From a virus: a DNA stretch of 64,000 nucleotides. This document shows positions 1,364 to 60,012 of the stretch, one piece after another; position 1 is the stretch's first letter; each line of letters opens with the position of its first letter. The stretch is taken from the IMG/VR virus record IMGVR_UViG_3300037423_000411, positions 32,001-96,000 of that record; one strand, written 5' to 3'. The translations under genes were made by a program, and so were the position numbers. The notes beneath the pieces are model-generated. The model was not told where the DNA came from and ran no database searches. It worked only from the letters and a program-made list of their open reading frames with translations.

Positions 1364-1366
1364 GAA

Positions 1367-1765
1367 CACCCTCTGAGCGACGTCCTATGAGTTGTGTAAG
1401 GAGGCTGGCTCAGAGGGTGCTTGAGGCGAGTCGAGGCGTCTATGGAAGACACTGTTCGGTTGGACTCGCCCCCTCAGACGTGGCGACGGATTTATGTGCC
1501 TAGTCGGCGTATTGGCCTCGCCTGAGGTCTGACGGACCTGAGCGCGAAAGTTTGGCTTCCCGTACGGTATGGCTCAGGCCCTGCTTGAGCTCCCTTCAGG
1601 CAATGGATCTATGGTCCTCGCTTGGCGACTGGCCCGAAGGGAAGTTCTGTCCTCGCTGCGGGGAAAACCTGGTGCCCCGTCAACGCATCACTCATGGCAG
1701 CGAGGAAGCTTGGTTCCCGCAGACGAAAAACATCCTGGGTATCGGCAGGACTTGGTCTGCGGGAA
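1367..1765 (-). ncRNA. TIGR-like stem-loop guide array, 7 units
   Basis: Units at 1367-1419, 1425-1470, 1472-1527, 1537-1578, 1591-1642, 1651-1705 and 1714-1765; each is a unique inverted-repeat stem enclosing CCA-N~9-(YG)-Nx-(C)CA-N9-11. Confidence 0.8.
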
Positions 1766-4248: not shown

Positions 4249-4479
4249 TTCCGCCTCCGATGGGGTGAGAGTCCCGCTTACAGGTCCATAGTGCCGTATC
4301 AAGGTTACAGGTGTCAACCGATACACGCGCGAAGCCTCCGAGCGGAGGGTTATGGGTTCGTACCCTGCGGAGTGGCTCGGAGGCTTCTTCTGGCGGTTCC
4401 GCGTCCTTATCAAGACGGACGTAATCGGCACAACGTCCGGTCGCGGATCTCTTACCTAGCTGTCTGACCCAGGATCTGA

Positions 4480-5172: not shown

Positions 5173-5200
5173 GGCTTGAGGATCGTCCTCCTATGACGAA

Positions 5201-5258
5201 TCCCGCTCCGAGCTTCGCGACATTGGGGATGACGCTTGTTGGATGGCTCGGAGCGGGA
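5201..5258 (-). ncRNA. solo TIGR-like unit
   Basis: 13-bp stem tcccgctccgagc/gctcggagcggga enclosing CCA-tccaacaag-CG-tcatcc-CCA-atgtcgcgaa. Confidence 0.7.
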
Positions 5259-5268
5259 CGATCTGGAT

Positions 5269-11731: not shown

Positions 11732-11793
11732 GTGTGAGGTCAGCTTCGGGACTTTATGGGTTTCGTTCCCTTGTCTGGAAGCTGACCTCACAC
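11732..11793 (-). ncRNA. solo TIGR-like unit
   Basis: Perfect 16-bp stem gtgtgaggtcagcttc enclosing CCA-gacaagggaa-CGAAACCCA-taaagtccc. Confidence 0.78.
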
Positions 11794-22446: not shown

Positions 22447-22820
22447 CCTCGCCTCGCTTTCCTGCTTGCGTACGTCGTGCAAGCACGACAAGTGCGCTTG
22501 CCTCGATAGACTCTCGTGTTTTCTTCGGTGTACTCGTGACCGCGAGGACAGTGCGTCTTGTTGGCGAACCCGTTGCGGCCCTTCATGTCACGATCTCGGT
22601 TGTTGTCTCCGACAGTGCCCTCCACCAGATGCTCAGGATTGACGCAAGGCGGATTGTCACAGGTGTGCATGATGCAGAGCCTGTAACCAGGCAAACGGCC
22701 ATGAGTGTCGATCCATACCAAGCGGTGAGCAAGCTGGACAACGGAACCGAAGCGACGCACCTTCACGATCCCGTATCCAGCCTTGTTTCGGTTGCCTTCC
22801 CACTCGATGCAATCGCTCAT
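22428..22820 (-). CDS. HNH homing endonuclease
   Basis: CIEW...GYG, AHRL, HTCDNPPCVNPEHL...N and THCPRGHEY...CRAC. Confidence 0.9.
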   Translation of the reverse strand: MSDCIEWEGNRNKAGYGIVKVRRFGSVVQLAHRLVWIDTHGRLPGYRLCIMHTCDNPPCVNPEHLVEGTVGDNNRDRDMKGRNGFANKTHCPRGHEYTEENTRVYRGKRTCRACTTYASRKARRGCPEQF

Positions 22821-23509
22821 GCTGGTCGCGCCACCCAGCTGTAACCTTCCCCGTAAGGGATGTCGTCTCCGTGGACATAACCCACGGCCTCAAGCTCGTC
22901 CTCGACTTCCCTGCGGTTCTCAGGGCCTACGATGAAATCGTGCATCTCCACCAGTAGCGTGGGCTGAAACTCCATCAGCGTCTTACGAGCACCCTTCAGG
23001 ACCCGCTTCTCAGCTCCTTCCACATCGATCTTGATCATGTCGACGCGCGCCAGATCCTCGTGCTTGAGAAGCGTGTCAAGCTTGTCGGCCTGAACCGAAC
23101 CCCACTCAGCGGCAGGAATGCAGCGCCGTGAGCCGCCTGAAACCTTGTCGTTGGGGTCCACCATGTCGAGCCGTGTCTTCTTGTTCCAGGCAGCTGCGTT
23201 GATCGTCGTGATCTTCGATCCGAGATCGTTGAGGAGGATGTTCTTCTCCAACTTCTCCCACGTCGAGAAGTTGGCCTCGATCGCGATGACCTGCTCGGCC
23301 TTGCGTGCCAGCTCCAGCGCGTACAGACCCACATGAGCGCCGACATCAACGAACACCCCGCCCTTGGGGAACGCGAACAACGCCATGTTCACGATGCCCA
23401 TCTCGTGCCCGAGGATAGGAAGATGATCGTCGGTTTCCGGGCCTTCGTAGTGCCACTTCAGCCCTGTGGGGCCTACGGCAACGGTTCCCGGTAGCAACTT
23501 CTCAGTCAT
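22817..23509 (-). CDS. FkbM-family methyltransferase
   Basis: FVDVGAHVGLY, IAIEAN and IKIDVEGAE motifs. Confidence 0.88.
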   Translation of the reverse strand: MTEKLLPGTVAVGPTGLKWHYEGPETDDHLPILGHEMGIVNMALFAFPKGGVFVDVGAHVGLYALELARKAEQVIAIEANFSTWEKLEKNILLNDLGSKITTINAAAWNKKTRLDMVDPNDKVSGGSRRCIPAAEWGSVQADKLDTLLKHEDLARVDMIKIDVEGAEKRVLKGARKTLMEFQPTLLVEMHDFIVGPENRREVEDELEAVGYVHGDDIPYGEGYSWVARPA

Positions 23510-23734
23510 CTTCCACTCCCACATCAACGAGCTGAGCATCATAAGGAAGCTTCAAGTCAGGAGCTACCAGAGGCTCGAACGCCACCACGGGAACCTGCAT
23601 CGTCACCCTGACAGCCCTAGCGTGCTTGGGCTTCTTCTGTGTGAACCCCACGACCTTCGCGCCAATCACTTCGTAGTCGTCCCAGATCGGTTCGATGTGC
23701 AGATACACGCTGACCGTTACGTAACCAGGCGCTG

Positions 23735-24997
23735 TCACATCAGCTCACCTGTCTTCATGTTCACCTTGTTGCCTCCCTCAGGAACGTCCAGGAAGTCGGA
23801 CACGTCCTGCTCTTCGTCGTCCAGCTCCTGTGACTCAGCGACAGACAGTTCCGTGACATCACCAGCGATCTCGACACCGAACTTGTCGTACTTGGACCCG
23901 TCGACCTTCTCCATGCCCTTCTGAGCCAGCACCTCTACGGCCTTGGCTTCCAGCGTCTTCAGCCAGTCGGTCCGGTACTCCAGAGCTTCCAGCTGCTTGC
24001 TCTCACCCTTCGGCACGTCGAAAGGAGGAGCTAACTCGTTCGGGTACTTGTAAACCCCCGCGCTGGCCTTGACGATGCCTTGAGCAACCAGGTAGCTCAG
24101 TACCGCGTGAGGCTGTGAGAACCCCTTGCCGAAGCGCACCCGCAGCTCAGCTGTGCGGAACGGATCGCCCACCTTGTTCTTGAGCACCGTGACCTTGGTC
24201 CGCACCGACGTCGTCAGGTTCTCTTCCTGCTCGGTGAGTTCGTTCTCACCCTTCTCCTTAACGTTACCGATCTGCTGGAACTCCATCCGGAGCGAGCCGT
24301 AGAAGGGGAGAGCCTTGCCGCCAGGAGAGGTCTTCTGCTTGATCCCTTGAGCCGCCATGCGCTGACCCATCGGGGTGAGATCTGCTTTGTCCATGACATG
24401 GTTCAGGAAGACAGCCGCGCAATCGGTCTGCTGCAGCTTGCCTACGATCTGACGGCAGAACTGGTGCATGAGCTTGGCTCGCTCCATGACCTCGGCCGTA
24501 CCGGTGTCGGACTCGATCTCGCGCTTGGTCACCATCGACGCCACCGAGTCGAAGATGCCCATTCCAAGCTCTCCGGTGTCGAGAAGCTTCCGGAACAGGT
24601 TCGCTCCGTGCTCGAAGTTCTTGGGCCAGAGGTAGATGAACGAAGGGTCCTTCGTGTCGATGCCGAGCGCCTGTGCGTAGTCCTTGTCGAGTGCGTACTC
24701 GTAGTCCACGAACATCACATAGCCACCAGCCTGCTGCAGCTTCGCAGCGGTCTGCAATGCACACGTGGTCTTGCCGCTCGACGGCGGACCGATCAGCTCG
24801 GTGATACGTCCCTTCGGGAGCCCTCCGACGCCCGTCACAGCGTCCAGCAGGAGGTTGCCCGTAGTGAGACCCTCAACCGGCTTGAACTCCTCCAGGACGC
24901 CGATAGGCTCCTTGTCCTTACCCGTACGCAGCTGAGTCAGCGTCTCCGCAAGCGTGAGCTTCTTCGGCTCGGCTTTCTTCTTAGGTGGCACCCTCAA
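23735..24997 (-). CDS. recA: RecA-like recombinase
   Basis: GGLPKGRITELIGPPSSGKTT, IFDSVA, PGGKALPFYGSLR and KNKVGDPFR. Confidence 0.95.
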   Translation of the reverse strand: MRVPPKKKAEPKKLTLAETLTQLRTGKDKEPIGVLEEFKPVEGLTTGNLLLDAVTGVGGLPKGRITELIGPPSSGKTTCALQTAAKLQQAGGYVMFVDYEYALDKDYAQALGIDTKDPSFIYLWPKNFEHGANLFRKLLDTGELGMGIFDSVASMVTKREIESDTGTAEVMERAKLMHQFCRQIVGKLQQTDCAAVFLNHVMDKADLTPMGQRMAAQGIKQKTSPGGKALPFYGSLRMEFQQIGNVKEKGENELTEQEENLTTSVRTKVTVLKNKVGDPFRTAELRVRFGKGFSQPHAVLSYLVAQGIVKASAGVYKYPNELAPPFDVPKGESKQLEALEYRTDWLKTLEAKAVEVLAQKGMEKVDGSKYDKFGVEIAGDVTELSVAESQELDDEEQDVSDFLDVPEGGNKVNMKTGELM

Positions 24998-25092
24998 TCC
25001 CTTCGTCTGGTGAGAGGCGCGAAGAACCAGGGCTTACGCCGCCGTTGAATGGCCTCTCATCACACGTACGGACTTCGGAGACAAGATCTGCA

Positions 25093-25136
25093 CAGAGGCG
25101 AATGCCTTAGGGGTGACGCTCCTTGTATGGCCTCTG
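25093..25136 (-). ncRNA. solo TIGR-like unit (a degenerate second unit lies at 25011-25059)
   Basis: cagaggCCA-tacaaggag-CGTCACCCC-taaggcattc-gcctctg. Confidence 0.62.
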
Positions 25137-25191
25137 AACAGCACAACACCCCCGCAGCGTCCATTACGGGGGTGTTGAGTCTTGTTGAGGA

Positions 25192-25482
25192 CTACGCGTA
25201 CTGCTTGGCGGCCTTCTTCAGCTCCTTCGCCGCGCCCTCCAGGGCCTCGGCGACGTCGGTGCCGACGACCTTCTTGTGCGAAGCCGCCTGCTTGACCGCG
25301 TCCCGCGCTGCGTTGAGGCGCTCGACCTTCTCCTCCGAGGTGAGACCGGAACGTCCCTGCAGCTCCTGCAGAGCCTCCTCCAGCGCCGCCGACGCCTTCT
25401 TGGACTCGACCTTGTAGCGAGCGTTCTGGATCGTGCTCTGCGCCGACTTGCGGAGATCGCGGCCCTTGCTGCTTCCGTACAA
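25192..25482 (-). CDS. small helical protein, GxSGL family paralog 1
   Basis: TTG start after GGAGG; RDLRKSAQ...GRSGLTSEEKVERL. Confidence 0.7.
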   Translation of the reverse strand: MYGSSKGRDLRKSAQSTIQNARYKVESKKASAALEEALQELQGRSGLTSEEKVERLNAARDAVKQAASHKKVVGTDVAEALEGAAKELKKAAKQYA

Positions 25483-25579
25483 AACTGCCTCCGTGGTTGT
25501 GAGAGCCTTCATGCTCTTCGGTTGACTTGCAGACGACCTTACGGGGGTCAAGTTACAGCTGTCAACTCGGTCAGCCGTT

Positions 25580-25745
25580 TGAAAAAAAGTTCCTCTGGAC
25601 AGAGCAAGAGCCCTGACAGAACCGCTGCTCTCACACAGCGCCGCCGGAATTGACGGTCACGTTCTATCAGGGCTCCGGGTCGGAGGCAGTTGACCCACAG
25701 ACTCGGAGAGTCTGCTGCTGGGGCACGAGGGTGTGTCCGCGCGCT
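25580..25745 (-). ncRNA. structured intergenic RNA with loops antisense to early-gene leaders
   Basis: Several stems; loops AACUGCCUCC and UGUGAGAG; ends in a U7 tract at about 25582. Confidence 0.6.
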
Positions 25746-26360
25746 GTTGACAACGTTACGCTTCGGCGCCCTCGGCCGTCAATTGCAGCACGCTAGCTGT
25801 CAGTTCTTTGCACGCTTGCGCATAGGTTTTTTCCCATGACTTAGGCGCGGTGCCTACTTCATGCGTGACGAAGCGCACAGACCTCGTACGACCCGCCAAA
25901 CACCGGATAGAAACCCAGCCGATGGCATGTGAGTCCACGTCCATCAGATGAATGTCGCGCTCACGCAGCTGCATCGTCTCTGCTGAGGTGAGTTCCATGT
26001 TGTCGCCTGAAGCTATCCCTGACGGTGGCAGTCCTGCGAGCTTGACCACCGGCTGAGGCTCAAGGCCTCGCGCCTTCAGCTCAGCCGGTGTCATGTCCCT
26101 GTCAAGCGCGTAGAACGGCTCTACCGTCAGGCCTACGAACGTCCACTCCGACGTCTGAGCTAACCCCACACTGATGACCTGAGGAGGCTGTGTACGGCTT
26201 CCTGACCTCAGTGAGGACGAGAGATACCCGGCCAGCACAGTTGCTGCTGGCACCTTCCCTGAGCCTGTCTTGAGGAGCTTCAGCTGACCTGACCGCAGCT
26301 GCTTGCTCCGCTGGACGTTGATCAACTGCGTATCCAGCTCACGATCGTCGGAGTAGACAA

Positions 26361-26879
26361 CTACAAATCCAGCCATCCAGCCTCCTCCGAGAGAGCTGTC
26401 ACACGAATGATCGCGCCCTCCCGCTCCCCGTAGACCTTCTGAGACGGTCCGACGCGTACAGCTAGAGCGTCGTCCTTCCACACACCGGCAGCCGTCAGTG
26501 CGTCAAACGTCGACCGGAACAGCTTATCGATATCGCCCTTGGAATGATTGGTGACGTAAAACGGAGCGTCGTCTTTCAGGAGATGTGCATTACGGCCAGT
26601 GCGATAGTGCGCCTTCGGCCGTTTGAAGATGAAGGTGATCGCGATCTCACAAGGCCCTTCCCACGGAACCCAACCGTCACCCACCTCCTCCTCGGCGGCC
26701 TTCTTCACGTCGGTACGCCAGGAGGAGACCTTCGCGGAGTTCTCCGACATGGCAACCTGACCCGTGTACTCGCCAGCCTTCTTGATCGCCCAGCCTCGCT
26801 TGCTGCCCTGAGCACCTGGGGTGCCGAACACCCGGAAGGACACGTCGAACCCGGTCATCGGGTCAGGTTGCACTGTCAT
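26361..26879 (-). CDS. rusA: RusA-like Holliday junction resolvase
   Basis: PGAQGSK, RPKAH and GDIDKLFRSTFDALT...WKDD. Confidence 0.9.
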   Translation of the reverse strand: MTVQPDPMTGFDVSFRVFGTPGAQGSKRGWAIKKAGEYTGQVAMSENSAKVSSWRTDVKKAAEEEVGDGWVPWEGPCEIAITFIFKRPKAHYRTGRNAHLLKDDAPFYVTNHSKGDIDKLFRSTFDALTAAGVWKDDALAVRVGPSQKVYGEREGAIIRVTALSEEAGWLDL

Positions 26880-27880
26880 CAGAGATCCAGAATGTCCTGC
26901 AGAGACATCATGGCGTCGGCCTTCTTCGGCTCGTCCTTCTGCTCCTGCGGCAACGGAGCTGCGAACTCGGCCAACGGGTCAGCCGAACTGCCAGGGGTAG
27001 GATCCGGGGCCTCGGTCACTGCAGGCGTCGGAACAGTGTCCTGCACCTTCGGCTCTTCCTTGACAGGCGTGTCACCGAGCAGACTCGACACGTCGACAGC
27101 AGGAGCAACGTCGATGATCGTACCGTCAACCTTCCGGCCCATCGCGATCTCGTACCGCGACAGCACACGGCTGAGGTCCTCTTCGACCTGCTCACGCGTA
27201 AGACGGCGACCGAGAGCCGCGTCCAGGTTCTCCAACTTGTTGTTCTTGTACGCGAGCTTGACCTGTTCCATGCGAGCATCCGACTTCTGCCACTCGCACT
27301 CACCGGCCATGTTGATGTCGTACTTCTGGTACTGCTTGCTTTCGCACGGGCCGATGTTCAGGTCCCGCGTCTGCAGGTTGCCCCACTCCTTGGTGAGATC
27401 GATCAGCGTGTTGAACCGGGAGTCGGTGAACGACCACGTAACGATCTCGATGTTGAACGGGTCCTGAATCAGGAACGAGCCGACCTGCGTCTTGTATCGC
27501 AGGATGTTCATCGCGAAGCGTCGCTGCGGACCCTGAACAGCATCCGACTCCTTCGACGCCTTGCAGACCGGGCAGTTCTGCACGTCCACGCCCTGGTCGG
27601 CCAGGATGTTGATGTCACCGACACAGATGTGCTGACCGATGAAGTCGGTCTTCATGACCTCACGGGCTTCGGTGCTGCCGTCCTTGTTCCTGAAGTTCTG
27701 CGTCTCCATGACGGCCTTGCCGTTCACGATCTGAGGAGCGCGCAGCGTGTGAACGAACTGGTACTCAGGCTCACCCTCGATGCAGGAGACACGAGCGCGC
27801 TCGCCCTTCTCCAAGCTGAACTTGTTGAAGTCGTACTGCGACTTCACCCGATTCTCGTCCGTGAAGGTCATCTTCGGCAT
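26879..27880 (-). CDS. ssDNA-binding protein (gp32-like)
   Basis: Zn-type C..CPVC, RFAMNILRY and acidic flexible tail; replication context. Confidence 0.65.
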   Translation of the reverse strand: MPKMTFTDENRVKSQYDFNKFSLEKGERARVSCIEGEPEYQFVHTLRAPQIVNGKAVMETQNFRNKDGSTEAREVMKTDFIGQHICVGDINILADQGVDVQNCPVCKASKESDAVQGPQRRFAMNILRYKTQVGSFLIQDPFNIEIVTWSFTDSRFNTLIDLTKEWGNLQTRDLNIGPCESKQYQKYDINMAGECEWQKSDARMEQVKLAYKNNKLENLDAALGRRLTREQVEEDLSRVLSRYEIAMGRKVDGTIIDVAPAVDVSSLLGDTPVKEEPKVQDTVPTPAVTEAPDPTPGSSADPLAEFAAPLPQEQKDEPKKADAMMSLQDILDL

Positions 27881-49521: not shown

Positions 49522-49571
49522 CGAGAGAGGCGCGGACTATTTGGTAGCCGTGCTCGATGTGGCCTCTCTCG
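49522..49571 (-). ncRNA. solo TIGR-like unit immediately upstream of the tRNA-like RNA
   Basis: cgagagaggCCA-catcgagca-CGGCTACCA-aatagtccgc-gcctctctcg. Confidence 0.75.
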
Positions 49572-55176: not shown

Positions 55177-55618
55177 CTAGCTTCTCGCAACCCTTCCCAT
55201 CACCGGAGGACGATCGTCCGTCCGCACGAACCGGCCTCTCCTCGAACGTGCAGTCTGACCACAGTGCTTACAGGAACCTTCGCGATAAAGGATCGCGATC
55301 TCTGCCCCCGGATCTTCTCTCGGTGCAGCACTTCCTGCTGAGTCGAAGAACCAGCCCACCACGTACCTTTCATGTAGGTCGATCGCTGTCGACACAGGAC
55401 GGCCGGTGCGCTTCGCGATACGTGCTCCCATACAGGGATGCCGGTAGATCGCCAGCAGAGGTGACGGCCAGTACTCCGGAGGGTCTACCGCATTCACTCT
55501 GTCGAGCCCGGCCTGTAGCTCTTCTTCAGTCATCGATCTGCCTTTCGCCCATAAAACAAGGCAAGACCCGTACGCAAGCCTCTCACTTCTTACGTACGGG
55601 TCTTGCCGAAAAGAACGT

Positions 55619-58402: not shown

Positions 58403-60012
58403 GGTTTGATCAACTCCAGAAGCTGGGTGGGTGAGAGCTGATCAAACAGCTCCGTCTCGCTGTCGAAGACATAGTCACTGAGCGCCTGGCGAGTGGCGAG
58501 GATGGCCTTGTACTTCTGTTCCTGTGTGTCAACTGTCAACAGGTTAAACACGAATACGCGGTCGAAGCCAGAGCCCACGCGCCGGACACGACCTACCGTC
58601 TGTGACACACGCGCCGGGTTGAGTTGTAGGTCAACGAAGACCATGATGTTCGCGCACTGCAGGTTCAGCGACCTCTCGATAGCCGAGGTACCCATCAGAA
58701 CCTGGCATTTCGGATCTGACCAGAAACGATCGATTTCCTCTTTGCGCCGTACCGACGAAGCGTCCTTCCCCCAGATGCGTGCCGTGTGGATGCCGACCTC
58801 GCTCAGCCGTCTGTCCAAGGCATCCACCGACGCCGTGTTGTGGATGAACGTCACGACCTTCTGGTCTGCCCAGTCCGTCTGCAGCTTCTGGCTGAGCCAG
58901 TCGAGCTTCACCGATGCACCAGGACCATCCGGCTCACCGAGCGCCTGCAGTCCTGCGCAGATGCGCTGCCCGTAGCCGACCTTCAATCGAGCATCCAGCG
59001 CCTTGACGACCACCCCGTCCTCTGTGTGGATGAGCATCTTGGAGACCGAGTCCTGAAGCTCCTGATACCGCTTCCGCTGCTCCGGATACAGCTCCAGCCA
59101 GACATCCTGAGGAGGCATCAGCATCGGCATGCTGACGTCCTTCAGATCGGTGTACTTACGCTGCAGGAACATCGGCGTGACCTTGGCCTTGAGTTCAGCC
59201 ATGTTCTTGAAGCCTGTGGTCTGTACTTCGACCTTCGAGCTACCCGAGCTGTAGTCGTACACCGTGATCGGTTCCTTGCGGATGTACCGATTCTCGAACC
59301 GGCCGAGCGGCCCGAAGACGTCCAGACCGTCCGTCAGCATCGCGGCTGCATGCATCTGCTGCAGCCGCATCTGAATGATGGTCGCGTTGATGACGATCGA
59401 GCGGTGTGCGTAGCGTGACAGCTCTTCCAGAAGCTTGTGCGTGCGGTTCGCGTGGTTCAGGATCGGGTCCACGTCGTCCACGACCAGGATGTTCGGAGCG
59501 AGCTTGGTGAGGATGCGTGCGTCTTTCAAGGCCATGTGCGAACCGATGATGAGGACTTCCCAGCTCTGCGCGTAGCGCTTCACCCGGGCAGGCTTGCTCA
59601 TGCCGGACAGGATGGCCTCGAAATGAATCGTCGGCACCCACCGCTGAGCTTCTTCCAGCCACTGCATCGCCGCTGCCGTCTGACAGACGATGAGGGCACG
59701 ACCTCCAAGCTCGTTGCGTTGCTTCAGGAGCGCGATCAAACCCAGGATCTGGTTGGTCTTGCCTAGTCCCATCAGGTCTGCGAGGATCGCCCTCTCCTTC
59801 AGATACAGCCAGGAGATACCGACCTTCTGATGCCCGAACAGCTCGCCTCCGCAGAGCTTGTACTCGCAGTCGGGACGGGGGGTGTCGTGATGCTTGCACG
59901 CCTTGTAGTTCCAGGCCTCAAGGTGCGGGATCTCGATGTCCTGAGAGTCGCGGATCTTGTCGGCGTAGCTCTTCTTCGGGTCCAGGTCGAACTCAGGAGC
60001 GGCTGCAGTCAC
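58399..60012 (-). CDS. SNF2-family helicase
   Basis: ILADLMGLGKT, SLNLQCAN and QTVGRVRRVG. Confidence 0.9.
   Translation of the reverse strand: MTAAAPEFDLDPKKSYADKIRDSQDIEIPHLEAWNYKACKHHDTPRPDCEYKLCGGELFGHQKVGISWLYLKERAILADLMGLGKTNQILGLIALLKQRNELGGRALIVCQTAAAMQWLEEAQRWVPTIHFEAILSGMSKPARVKRYAQSWEVLIIGSHMALKDARILTKLAPNILVVDDVDPILNHANRTHKLLEELSRYAHRSIVINATIIQMRLQQMHAAAMLTDGLDVFGPLGRFENRYIRKEPITVYDYSSGSSKVEVQTTGFKNMAELKAKVTPMFLQRKYTDLKDVSMPMLMPPQDVWLELYPEQRKRYQELQDSVSKMLIHTEDGVVVKALDARLKVGYGQRICAGLQALGEPDGPGASVKLDWLSQKLQTDWADQKVVTFIHNTASVDALDRRLSEVGIHTARIWGKDASSVRRKEEIDRFWSDPKCQVLMGTSAIERSLNLQCANIMVFVDLQLNPARVSQTVGRVRRVGSGFDRVFVFNLLTVDTQEQKYKAILATRQALSDYVFDSETELFDQLSPTQLLELIKP

What the first reader, a model, noticed from the sequence alone, without database searches (positions are those of the whole stretch)
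25580..25745. Candidate trans-acting sRNA with two loops antisense to the early-gene leader signature
Read on the minus strand, this gap folds into stems (cagactc/gagtctg; gggtc/gaccc; gagccctgatagaac/gttctgtcagggctc enclosing cgctg/cagcg) and ends in U7. One loop is AACUGCCUCC, complementary to GGAGGCAG(UU), the SD context of several early genes. The next loop is UGUGAGAG, complementary to CUCUCAC(A). Their 5'-3' order is the antiparallel order needed to pair with a leader. Matches to the adjacent gene leader are perfect (11 nt at 25483-25493 and 9 nt at 25498-25506). Inference: a single phage sRNA controls the roughly 17-gene early regulon through double kissing loops, or acts as an antitoxin for the neighbouring gene.
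Basis: partly seen in the sequence, partly recalled or inferred. Interest (0 to 1): 0.87.

Follow-up and report, generated by a model that had tools for sequence, protein, structure and literature searches.

The report
Phage RNA matching its gene leaders
An uncultured soil phage carries a conserved folded RNA whose two exposed loops are the exact base-pairing partners of a private two-part tag placed in front of about twenty of its own genes, so one RNA probably controls their translation, although no transcript has yet been seen.

Summary
On the coding (minus) strand, 25715-25582 folds into a hairpin, a 5-bp hairpin with the anti-Shine-Dalgarno loop AACUGCCUCC, a 15-bp stem enclosing two small hairpins (second loop UGUGAGAG), and the only T7 run on the coding strand of this 133.7-kb phage. 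All 18 loop bases pair with the next gene's leader (11+9 nt); 10 of 100,000 shuffles give a 10+8 two-site match. The loops match a private leader tag, CUCUCAC-N0-15-GGAG(GC), before 23-24 genes, all on that strand. A distant metagenomic relative (L004) has the same RNA after the same MTA/SAH-nucleosidase-like gene. Its stems differ (15 of 29 pairs changed on both sides, 57/57 cells paired) but the loops GCCUCC and GUGAGAG are kept, and a model built from either copy finds the other as best hit. L004 lacks the neighbouring gene. Best reading (0.5): a c4-like same-strand antisense RNA blocking ribosome binding on tagged leaders. There are no transcript data, only two copies are known, and nothing in Rfam matches. 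This scan noted similar designs in other phages. In passing: the single inverted start-associated sequence of mycobacteriophage Anaya also sits in a hairpin loop.

The parts
25756..26376 (-). Gene A, 206 aa, MTA/SAH-nucleosidase-like (PNP_UDP_1 superfamily). The RNA element lies just 3' of it in both phages.
   Evidence: 7 relatives at E<=1e-3 among 1.84 billion representatives. PF01048 hits 4 of 7 family members, best E 1.1e-12, but none for the window's own copy. Family profile against PDB MTA/SAH nucleosidases gives E 8.4e-9. Codon-position GC is atypical for this phage: 0.63/0.48/0.66.
25753..25782 (-). Candidate own promoter of the RNA: TTGACG (25782-25777), 18 nt, TAACGT (25758-25753, overlapping gene A's stop). 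Weak; inferred only.
   Evidence: Read. The consensus scan reports no promoter-like site in 24000-27500, so this is below its threshold. No equivalent was seen in L004.
25697..25715 (-). Hairpin 1: 8 bp with a UCC triloop.
   Evidence: MFE and centroid fold. L004 has a 6-bp hairpin with an AUU triloop at the same place.
25677..25696 (-). Hairpin 2: 5-bp stem, 10-nt loop AACUGCCUCC (25691-25682) = anti-Shine-Dalgarno loop. GCCUCC is kept in L004.
   Evidence: Complementary to GGAGGCAGUU of gene B, and to GGAGGC, the SD form of 18 of the 20 box-bearing genes.
25608..25675 (-). Three-way-junction domain. P1 is 15 bp (25675-25661 with 25622-25608). P2 is CCGUC-AAUUCC-GGCGG (25656-25641). P3 is CGCUG-UGUGAGAG-CAGCG (25640-25623), with the anti-box loop at 25635-25628.
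   Evidence: In the two-sequence structural alignment, 11 of 14 P1 pairs changed on both sides and all cells are paired, while the loop GUGAGAG is identical.
25582..25604 (-). Weak 4-bp hairpin CUCU-GUCC-AGAG, then GAAC, then T7 (25588-25582): possible 3' end of the RNA or the operon.
   Evidence: This is the only run of 6 or more T on the coding strand of the whole 133,696-bp genome. It is not called a terminator by the scan.
25536..25565 (-). Promoter of gene B: TTGACA (25565-25560), 18 nt with the family spacer GCTGTAAC, TAAGGT (25541-25536).
   Evidence: One of 10 sites of the motif TTGACAGCTGTAACTT (3 or fewer mismatches), all on the minus strand. 8 of the 10 are followed by a CUCUCAC leader.
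25483..25506 (-). Target sites in gene B's leader: box GCUCUCACA (25506-25498) and SD context CGGAGGCAGUU (25493-25483).
   Evidence: Best two-site match of 207 gene calls (11 + 9).
25192..25482 (-). Gene B, 96 aa from TTG 25482 (or 106 aa from ATG 25512). A helical Lys/Ala/Glu-rich orphan. With its own promoter and a 13-bp hairpin after its stop, it looks like an inserted cassette.
   Evidence: GC3 is 0.91. Only itself was found among 5.8 billion clusters. No Pfam or PHROG family. Absent in L004, where RecA follows the RNA directly. The start was chosen by analogy with the other tagged leaders.

Best explanation
The gap encodes a conserved non-coding RNA of about 115-165 nt on the coding strand. 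It is made either as the 3' end of the replication/recombination operon that ends with the MTA/SAH-nucleosidase-like gene, or from a weak promoter overlapping that gene's stop. The RNA displays two apical loops. One is an anti-Shine-Dalgarno loop (..GCCUCC). The other (GUGAGAG) is the complement of the CUCUCAC box that sits just 5' of the SD in 20-24 phage genes. The two loops bind the two parts of such a leader in antiparallel order and cover the ribosome-binding site, so the RNA represses translation of the tagged, mostly promoter-proximal non-structural genes. The best-fitted target is the gene immediately downstream, where all 18 loop bases pair. This works like the c4 RNA of phages P1/P7, where one loop occludes the RBS and the other gives specificity by pairing upstream.

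Shown: the fold, its conservation with changed stems and fixed loops, the tag, and the complementarity.
Inferred: that the RNA accumulates, that it pairs with the leaders, and that the effect is repression rather than activation.
For: (1) The fold is more stable than shuffles on the minus strand only (z -3.71 against -1.56). The structure includes G.U pairs that would be A.C on the other strand. All large ORFs with the coding GC signature lie on the minus strand; my crude caller then searched that strand only and made 207 calls.
(2) A second copy exists in L004 at the same place, 3' of a gene A homologue (38% identity). It has the same five helices, different stem sequences and the same loops.
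(3) Reciprocal models agree. The window-only model finds L004 1154-1252 as the best hit other than the window's own two strands (17.6 bits; E 0.12 in 135 kb, 0.0021 in L004 alone). The L004-only model finds window 25606-25698(-) as the top hit of 64 kb (26.3 bits, E 0.0025; next hit E 4.6).
(4) 57 of 57 cells are paired and 15 of 29 pairs changed on both sides. Slid controls give 31-47% paired and 0-4 such pairs.
(5) GTGAGAG is rare: 5 occurrences on the gene strand in about 507 kb of the 80 other RecA loci, and 5 on the coding strand of this genome.
(6) The tag is real and two-part: 23 minus-strand against 0 plus-strand sites, and 18 of the 20 box-bearing SDs are GGAGGC against 52 of 104 overall. 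That C pairs with the conserved G of GCCUCC.
(7) Two-site matches (anti-SD 6 or more, anti-box 7 or more, in order) occur in 20 of 207 gene calls, with gene B on top. The distribution of anti-box matches is bimodal: 181 calls at 6 or fewer, 26 at 7-9.
(8) Four related phage records (three complete, 133-137 kb; one 34% complete) have neither the tag (0-1 sites per strand) nor a model hit.
(9) The only T7 on the coding strand lies at the element's end.
(10) The c4 mechanism as described in PMC5320573 (passages read) has the same logic.
Against: No RNA data: no listed sequencing run is RNA, so the existence, ends and abundance of the RNA are unknown.
Only two copies are known, and their alignment was fitted to the structure, which inflates pair counts (caveat).
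L004's 243-nt gap as a whole is not more stable than shuffles (z -0.57, 58 of 200).
Model E-values are modest and roughly calibrated. One search route missed the window copy altogether.
The T7 is 18 nt from the large stem, behind only a 4-bp hairpin, and L004 has no T run, so termination here is not established.
Raw duplex energies between upstream regions and leaders do not single out this pair in this GC-rich genome: -24.4 kcal/mol, within a range of -15.6 to -31.
L004's 2.2 kb shows no CUCUCAC leader, so tag and RNA could not be tested together there.
The box can also pair locally with the SD in 6 leaders, so binding of the RNA might activate rather than repress some genes.
Confidence: 0.5

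Rival explanations
1. Cis-acting RBS occlusion only. On read-through RNA from the upstream operon, the anti-SD segment pairs with gene B's SD 190 nt downstream and silences it. RNA started at gene B's own promoter, which lies between the two partners, is translated. This is the design recalled for T4 genes e, 49 and soc (from memory; no paper read).
For: The MFE and centroid folds of the 301-nt read-through RNA form exactly this 11-bp helix, AACUGCCUCCG with CGGAGGCAGUU (-119.9 kcal/mol, z -3.42, 0 of 100 shuffles). The promoter lies between the partners. The matches extend into gene-B-specific flanks.
Against: L004 keeps the RNA and both loops but has no gene B. It has no GGAGG or CUCUCAC between the element and RecA's ATG 24 nt downstream. 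The anti-box pairing would be a pseudoknot with P1. The T7 between the partners suggests that at least part of transcription ends first.
Confidence: 0.15
2. A structural 3'-UTR element of the nucleosidase-like gene, acting as an mRNA stabiliser, a processing or termination signal, or a protein-binding site. Its complementarity to the leaders would have no function.
For: It lies directly 3' of gene A in both phages. The phage has many other long intergenic hairpins. Duplex energies are not exceptional.
Against: A stabiliser needs stems, not fixed loops. Here the stems changed and the two loops stayed. Both conserved loops are complementary, in the right order, to the two linked parts of the phage's commonest leader tag. 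A 10+8 two-site match arises in 10 of 100,000 shuffles.
Confidence: 0.2
3. A riboswitch-like or other cis-regulatory leader for the gene downstream (RecA in the ancestral arrangement). It might sense a metabolite linked to the neighbouring SAH/MTA enzyme.
For: It is a three-way junction, conserved, and ends 24 nt before RecA's ATG in L004, where no SD is visible.
Against: No Rfam family matches at E<=10 in either copy. The conserved bases are in apical loops, not in the junction, whose joining strands differ in length and sequence. In the window, a promoter and a whole gene separate it from RecA.
Confidence: 0.07
4. The functional strand is the plus strand: a leader-like hairpin (CUCUCACA loop) plus GGAGGCAG, acting as a decoy for the unknown factor that reads the tag, or as the leader of the 49-codon ORF 25690-25839.
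For: On the plus strand the P3 hairpin has the grammar of the leader hairpins, and GGAGGCAG is followed by TTG.
Against: The plus-strand fold is not better than shuffles. Four G.U cells would become A.C. Every large ORF with the coding GC signature is on the minus strand. The box-to-SD distance is 45 nt here against 0-25 nt in real leaders. The SD-to-TTG spacer is 3 nt. The ORF overlaps gene A antisense.
Confidence: 0.03

Closest known systems
c4 antisense RNA of phages P1/P7 (Rfam family C4); the P4 CI RNA is similar (recalled)
   Same: It is encoded on the same strand as its target and upstream of it. It is a compact RNA of stem-loops. One loop covers the ribosome-binding site and a second loop pairs with a sequence just upstream and gives specificity (PMC5320573, passages read; PMC8201110, passages read).
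   Different: No match to the Rfam C4 model or to any other family. The anti-SD loop sits on a separate hairpin outside the three-way junction. The phage shows no immunity context. The targets appear to be a tag shared by 20-24 genes rather than one operon. RNase P processing is unknown here.
Start-associated sequences (SAS/ESAS) of Cluster K mycobacteriophages and Cluster EF Microbacterium phages
   Same: A private, strongly conserved motif at the RBS of a subset of non-structural genes, in one orientation, often with an upstream inverted repeat, and with unknown function. The authors left open a phage- or host-encoded RNA or protein factor (PMC3203893, passages; PMC7302621, passages; PMC12699233, passages).
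   Different: The motif is different (CUCUCAC plus GGAGGC, not GGGATAGGAGCCC). Here a conserved RNA carrying the complement of both parts has been identified.
Promoter-dependent RBS occlusion in T4 genes e, 49 and soc (recalled from memory, not read)
   Same: An upstream segment pairs with the SD on long transcripts. A promoter lying between the partners gives a translatable short transcript.
   Different: The partners here are 190 nt apart and separated by a T7 run. The element is also conserved where no such downstream SD exists (L004).
C-rich-loop sRNAs of Gram-positive bacteria and Actinobacteria (6C RNA, RNAIII-type UCCC loops; recalled)
   Same: Apical pyrimidine-rich loops that pair with G-rich SD regions without a need for a long seed.
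   Different: No Rfam hit to 6C or other families. A second, non-SD loop gives a two-site match to a phage-private tag.

Membership tests
C4 antisense RNA (Rfam C4) | Scores against the family covariance model | tested here: not met
   cmscan at E<=10 on window 24900-26500, on window 25570-25760 and on L004 1040-1290 lists no C4 hit.
C4 antisense RNA (Rfam C4) | Two loops complementary to two sites of the target mRNA, one covering the RBS and the other upstream | tested here: met
   Loop AACUGCCUCC pairs with the SD context and loop UGUGAGAG with the box 4 nt upstream, in antiparallel order. This is sequence complementarity only.
C4 antisense RNA (Rfam C4) | Encoded upstream of its target on the same strand | tested here: met
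   Element at 25715-25608, gene B leader at 25506-25483, both on the minus strand.
C4 antisense RNA (Rfam C4) | Processed from a longer transcript (RNase P) to a ~77-nt active RNA | not testable with these tools
   No RNA run holds the sequence.
Intrinsic (Rho-independent) terminator | G+C-rich hairpin followed within 0-2 nt by a U run | tested here: not met
   The scan of 24000-27500 lists no minus-strand site. The T7 follows a 4-bp hairpin plus GAAC and lies 18 nt after the 15-bp stem. L004 has no T run.
SAS/ESAS-type start-associated tag (applies to the leaders, not the RNA) | Conserved motif at or next to the RBS of a subset of genes, in one orientation, much better conserved than an SD needs to be | tested here: met
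   23 minus-strand against 0 plus-strand sites with controls at 0. 24 genes carry the box 25 nt or less before an SD and start. 18 of 20 box-bearing SDs are GGAGGC.
SAS/ESAS-type start-associated tag (applies to the leaders, not the RNA) | Sequence GGGATAGGAGCCC (Cluster K) or GGGAAAGGACCCC (Cluster EF) | tested here: not met
   The tag here is CUCUCAC-N0-15-GGAGGC. It resembles SAS in kind, not in sequence.
Known riboswitch classes (SAM, SAH and others in Rfam) | Scores against a family model | tested here: not met
   Only a 13-nt SAM-SAH fragment at 26194-26206 inside gene A, at 15.1 bits against a gathering score of 40.
RNA antitoxin (type I or type III toxin-antitoxin) | Adjacent toxin gene; antitoxin RNA overlapping it antisense (type I) or made of tandem repeats (type III) | tested here: not met
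   Gene B has no Pfam or PHROG family and no relatives. The RNA is on the same strand, does not overlap gene B, and has no tandem repeats. L004 keeps the RNA without gene B. PADLOC was not searched.

The most novel reading that the evidence does not exclude
A phage-wide, RNA-based translational switch. A private two-part leader tag (CUCUCAC box plus GGAGGC) marks 20 or more non-structural genes, and a single conserved RNA carrying both anti-tag loops reads it. The same logic may explain part of the start-associated sequences of mycobacteriophages, unexplained since 2011: in Anaya-type Cluster K phages the one inverted SAS copy lies in the apical loop of a conserved intergenic hairpin on the transcribed strand.
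Probability: 0.35. Interest if true: 0.85.

Novelty: new variant of a known kind. Interest (0 to 1): 0.7.

Why it matters
Phages are known to time their early genes with proteins (RegA- and RegB-type factors; recalled). A few temperate phages use operon-specific antisense RNAs such as c4. A single RNA that reads a private tag on a whole class of the phage's own genes would be a different and very economical control layer. It would also give a concrete, testable candidate for the unknown factor behind 'start-associated sequences'. As of the 2025 survey of 188 Cluster K genomes, these still had no assigned function (PMC12699233, passages). The two-loop design and its tag could also serve as an orthogonal translational switch. 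This scan has noted similar designs in other phages, which suggests the principle may be widespread, but none has been tested at the bench.

Tried and rejected
Relatives as DNA. blastn and tblastn against the phage collection found nothing near. IMG/VR scans with RecA alone and with alignment A1 gave no close relative. The metagenome and genome scans with A1 gave none. A 17-nt promoter motif gave one chance hit inside a gene. Gene A alignments gave one metagenome locus (L004) and nothing in IMG/VR or in genomes. RecA homologues at 82-83% identity (P0003, P0004) and gene A homologues at 61% and 53% (P0122, P0123) exist as proteins, but their contigs could not be fetched.

Sequencing runs. No RNA holder is listed. 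Contigs of two soil runs (X3, X4) cover the element with 0 differences, and X2 and X5 do not cover it. This gave no variation and no expression data.

Further members. Model R3 on 81 loci (506,819 bases) and on five related phage records gave only weak hits. The best, L013 2086-2167 at 18.1 bits and E 1.5, lies inside an ORF and does not keep the loops. The G003 hit has many non-standard pairs. R1 and R2 found no second copy in the phage's own genome. R2 run through the genome search missed even the known copy.

Rejected ideas.
- A cUNCGg tetraloop on hairpin 1: the loop is UCC.
- The T7 as an UP element of gene B's promoter: the other 9 family promoters have no T run.
- A tRNA-like RNA: ARAGORN finds nothing in the window.
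- Raw duplex energy as a test: not discriminating.
- Membership of the element in the phage's large 'stem-CA-N28-33-stem' hairpin family: its interior is different.

Gene B function. The protein atlas gave only scores of 0.85 (a YtxH-like cluster and a histone-family cluster), below the level that tool treats as evidence.

Literature. The ZoeJ paper (Dedrick 2019), cited for SAS/ESAS roles, is not held. Supplements of the SAS papers were not opened, and they may list the inverted SAS sites. My search for 'start-associated sequence' together with antisense or small-RNA terms listed no paper holding the first term among the 10 shown, out of 17,789 matching by the other terms. The 2025 Cluster K survey contains 0 occurrences of 'antisense', 'sRNA' or 'opposite orientation'. 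These are weak negatives.

Full report
Setting. The window is bases 32001-96000 of a 133,696-bp IMG/VR virus record with a 127-bp end overlap and 59.7% G+C. Near-identical sequence is held by soil and rhizosphere metagenome runs. Every large ORF with the genome's coding signature (GC3 about 0.75-0.8, GC2 about 0.4) lies on the minus strand. A crude caller, run on that strand only, gives 207 genes. The finding lies in the replication/recombination region. The order on the minus strand is: a 333-aa protein, RusA, gene A, the gap, gene B, a RecA/UvsX-like recombinase, and an FkbM-type methyltransferase.

The observation. ViennaRNA returns them as both MFE and centroid: hairpin 1 (8 bp, UCC loop), hairpin 2 (GGGUC-AACUGCCUCC-GACCC), and a 15-bp stem closing a three-way junction with CCGUC-AAUUCC-GGCGG and CGCUG-UGUGAGAG-CAGCG. 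A weak 4-bp hairpin and a T7 run at 25588-25582 follow. The minus strand folds at -79.5 kcal/mol (z -3.71). The plus strand is unremarkable (z -1.56). That T7 is the only run of six or more T on the coding strand of the entire genome. The perfect 11-nt and 9-nt matches to the next gene's leader are as stated, and they use every base of both loops plus one closing base each. In 100,000 shuffles of the 166-nt stretch, an 11-mer or longer arises 111 times and a colinear 10+8 pair 10 times. Among 646 SD-like sites compared with their own upstream sequence, 6 reach 10 nt and 2 reach 11 nt. By contrast, duplex energies that allow G.U pairs and bulges do not single this pair out in this GC-rich genome.

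The leader signature. GGAGGCAG is over-represented four-fold and is almost entirely on the coding strand. CTCTCAC occurs 39 times on the coding strand and 5 times on the other. CTCTCAC-N0-15-GGAG occurs 23 times against 0, with no hits for the reversed pattern. Twenty-four genes have the box within 25 nt of an SD and a start. In 14 of them the box is the loop of a 3-6-bp hairpin whose stem differs from gene to gene (GCG/CGC, GGG/CCC, GAG/CUC, GCUA/UAGC and others). In 6 others CUCU can pair with the GGAG of the SD. The two parts of the tag are linked: of 104 GGAGG sites in SD position, 52 are followed by C, but 18 of the 20 with a box are. Eight of the ten promoters of one family (TTGACA-GCTGTAAC-...) are followed by a tagged leader, gene B's among them. 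By analogy with the other tagged leaders, gene B most likely starts at TTG 25482, so both target sites lie in its 5' UTR.

A second copy. Gene B's protein is an orphan. Gene A belongs to a small family (7 representatives) related to MTA/SAH nucleosidases. A scan with the family alignment found one metagenome contig, L004. It carries a RusA-like gene, a gene A homologue (38% identity), a 224-nt gap and then RecA directly, with no gene B. Its gap folds into the same series: a triloop hairpin, GGACU-CGGCCUCC-GGUCC, and a 14-bp stem closing a three-way junction with CGCGG-UGACAGU-CCGCG and CCUGG-GGUGAGAG-CCGGG.

- A covariance model made from the window copy alone finds the L004 element as the best hit other than the window's own two strands (17.6 bits; E 0.12 in 135 kb, 0.0021 within L004).
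- A model made from the L004 copy alone finds window 25606-25698(-) as the top hit of the 64-kb window (26.3 bits, E 0.0025; the next hit has E 4.6).
- On the resulting alignment all 57 cells are standard pairs, and 15 of 29 pairs changed on both sides (11 of 14 in P1). Slid controls give 31-47% paired and 0-4 such changes.
- The loops keep GCCUCC and GUGAGAG. GTGAGAG is rare: 5 occurrences on the gene strand in about 507 kb of other RecA loci.

Caveats. There are only two sequences. The alignment is fitted to the structure. The L004 gap as a whole is not more stable than shuffles (z -0.57). One search route missed the window copy. No further member was found in 81 RecA loci or in five related phage records. 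Four of those records (three complete, 133-137 kb; one 34% complete) were also searched for the tag and lack it.

What it most likely is. Stems free to change while two apical loops stay fixed indicate that the loops are the working parts. Both loops are complementary, in the order needed for antiparallel pairing, to the two linked parts of the commonest leader tag of this phage. The conserved G of GCCUCC pairs with the tag-specific C that the 16S tail would not pair with (the 16S sequence is recalled, not tested). The simplest reading is an antisense RNA that covers the ribosome-binding site of tagged leaders. This is the c4 RNA logic described in PMC5320573: three stem-loops, processed from a longer transcript, the b' loop occluding the RBS and the a' loop pairing upstream. 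It is not a member of the Rfam C4 family or of any other family.

Gene B carries its own promoter, a tagged leader and a terminal 13-bp hairpin, and it is absent from L004. It therefore looks like a cassette inserted between the RNA and RecA. The complete loop match, including three non-consensus loop bases, suggests the RNA of this phage is tuned to gene B, with the other 19 two-site leaders as weaker targets. I put 0.5 on this reading. The sign of regulation, the ends of the RNA and its abundance are all inferred.

Rivals. A purely cis mechanism is predicted by the 301-nt fold, but it cannot explain conservation in L004, where no SD or box follows. A plain 3'-UTR stabiliser or terminator does not explain fixed loops, and the element fails the terminator pattern. 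A riboswitch-like leader for RecA is possible from the L004 layout, but the junction is not conserved and no family matches. The plus-strand reading fails on fold, G.U pairs and gene orientation.

Side test of the principle. Pope et al. 2011 (PMC3203893, passages) describe 11-19 start-associated sequences per Cluster K mycobacteriophage. Their function is unknown, and the authors note that four K1 phages each have a single copy in the opposite orientation, not at a gene start. In Anaya (JF704106) I find 15 copies on the gene strand and one inverted copy. The inverted copy lies in the 385-nt gap between gp96 and gp97. On the transcribed strand it reads as GCGCGG-CCUCCUAUCC-CCGCGC on top of an 11-bp stem, so the anti-SAS is a 10-nt apical loop. 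The 201-nt region folds with z -4.69. The region is conserved in 182 Cluster K records. Among nine sampled phages, five keep an anti-SAS-like loop (2 or fewer mismatches) and four do not: three of those have other loops (two pyrimidine-rich, Marshawn's not) and one lacks the hairpin in the alignment. Covariation in the stem is slight: 3 of 18 pairs. So the parallel is real in Anaya-type phages but is not general across Cluster K, and it remains a lead.

This scan's notes list similar anti-leader RNAs in other phages. I did not test those.

Noticed in passing
window 55560-55607 (minus strand): A 19-bp-stem hairpin with the 10-nt loop AAGUGAGAGG, followed by UUGUUUUAU. It is terminator-like and is a second apical loop carrying the anti-box GUGAGAG. 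It ends the gene 56494->55619, whose own leader has the box in an AGCU/AGCU hairpin, so the 5' and 3' ends of that mRNA could pair.
   Followed up: partly
L088 29835-29915 (Mycobacterium phage Anaya, record about 59,834-59,914): The single inverted start-associated sequence of Anaya is the 10-nt apical loop (CCUCCUAUCC) of a conserved hairpin in the gp96-gp97 gap, on the transcribed strand. The loop is kept in 5 of 9 sampled Cluster K phages. Three others have different loops (two pyrimidine-rich, one not) and one lacks the hairpin in the alignment.
   Followed up: partly
genome-wide; in the window e.g. 756, 4317, 5597, 6788, 25565, 33266, 52837, 57374 (minus strand): A family of 10 promoter-like sites, (G)GTTGACAnCTGTAACC-N7-9-NANNNT. 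The spacer is conserved and forms an imperfect palindrome around CAGCTG, as if an operator overlapped the -35. 8 of the 10 precede tagged leaders.
   Followed up: partly
many intergenic gaps, e.g. window 1365-1765, 4331-4387, 5200-5259, 11732-11793, 49522-49571, and 25093-25133: A large family of hairpins with 10-16-bp stems, often ending in GAGC/GCUC, and 28-33-nt loops that begin with CA and contain CCCA/ACCCA-like words. Other readers of this scan called them guide-like units. The element studied here is not one of them.
   Followed up: no
window 25010-25060 (minus strand): RecA's own leader carries GCCUCUCAC. It can pair with an upstream GAGAGGC about 35 nt before it, forming a local hairpin that would hide the box.
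   Followed up: no
window 25756-26376: Gene A, an MTA/SAH-nucleosidase-like protein, has a codon-position GC pattern unlike the rest of the phage (GC3 0.66 against about 0.8). It lies near an FkbM-type methyltransferase gene (22817-23542), which suggests removal of SAH produced by phage methyltransferases.
   Followed up: partly
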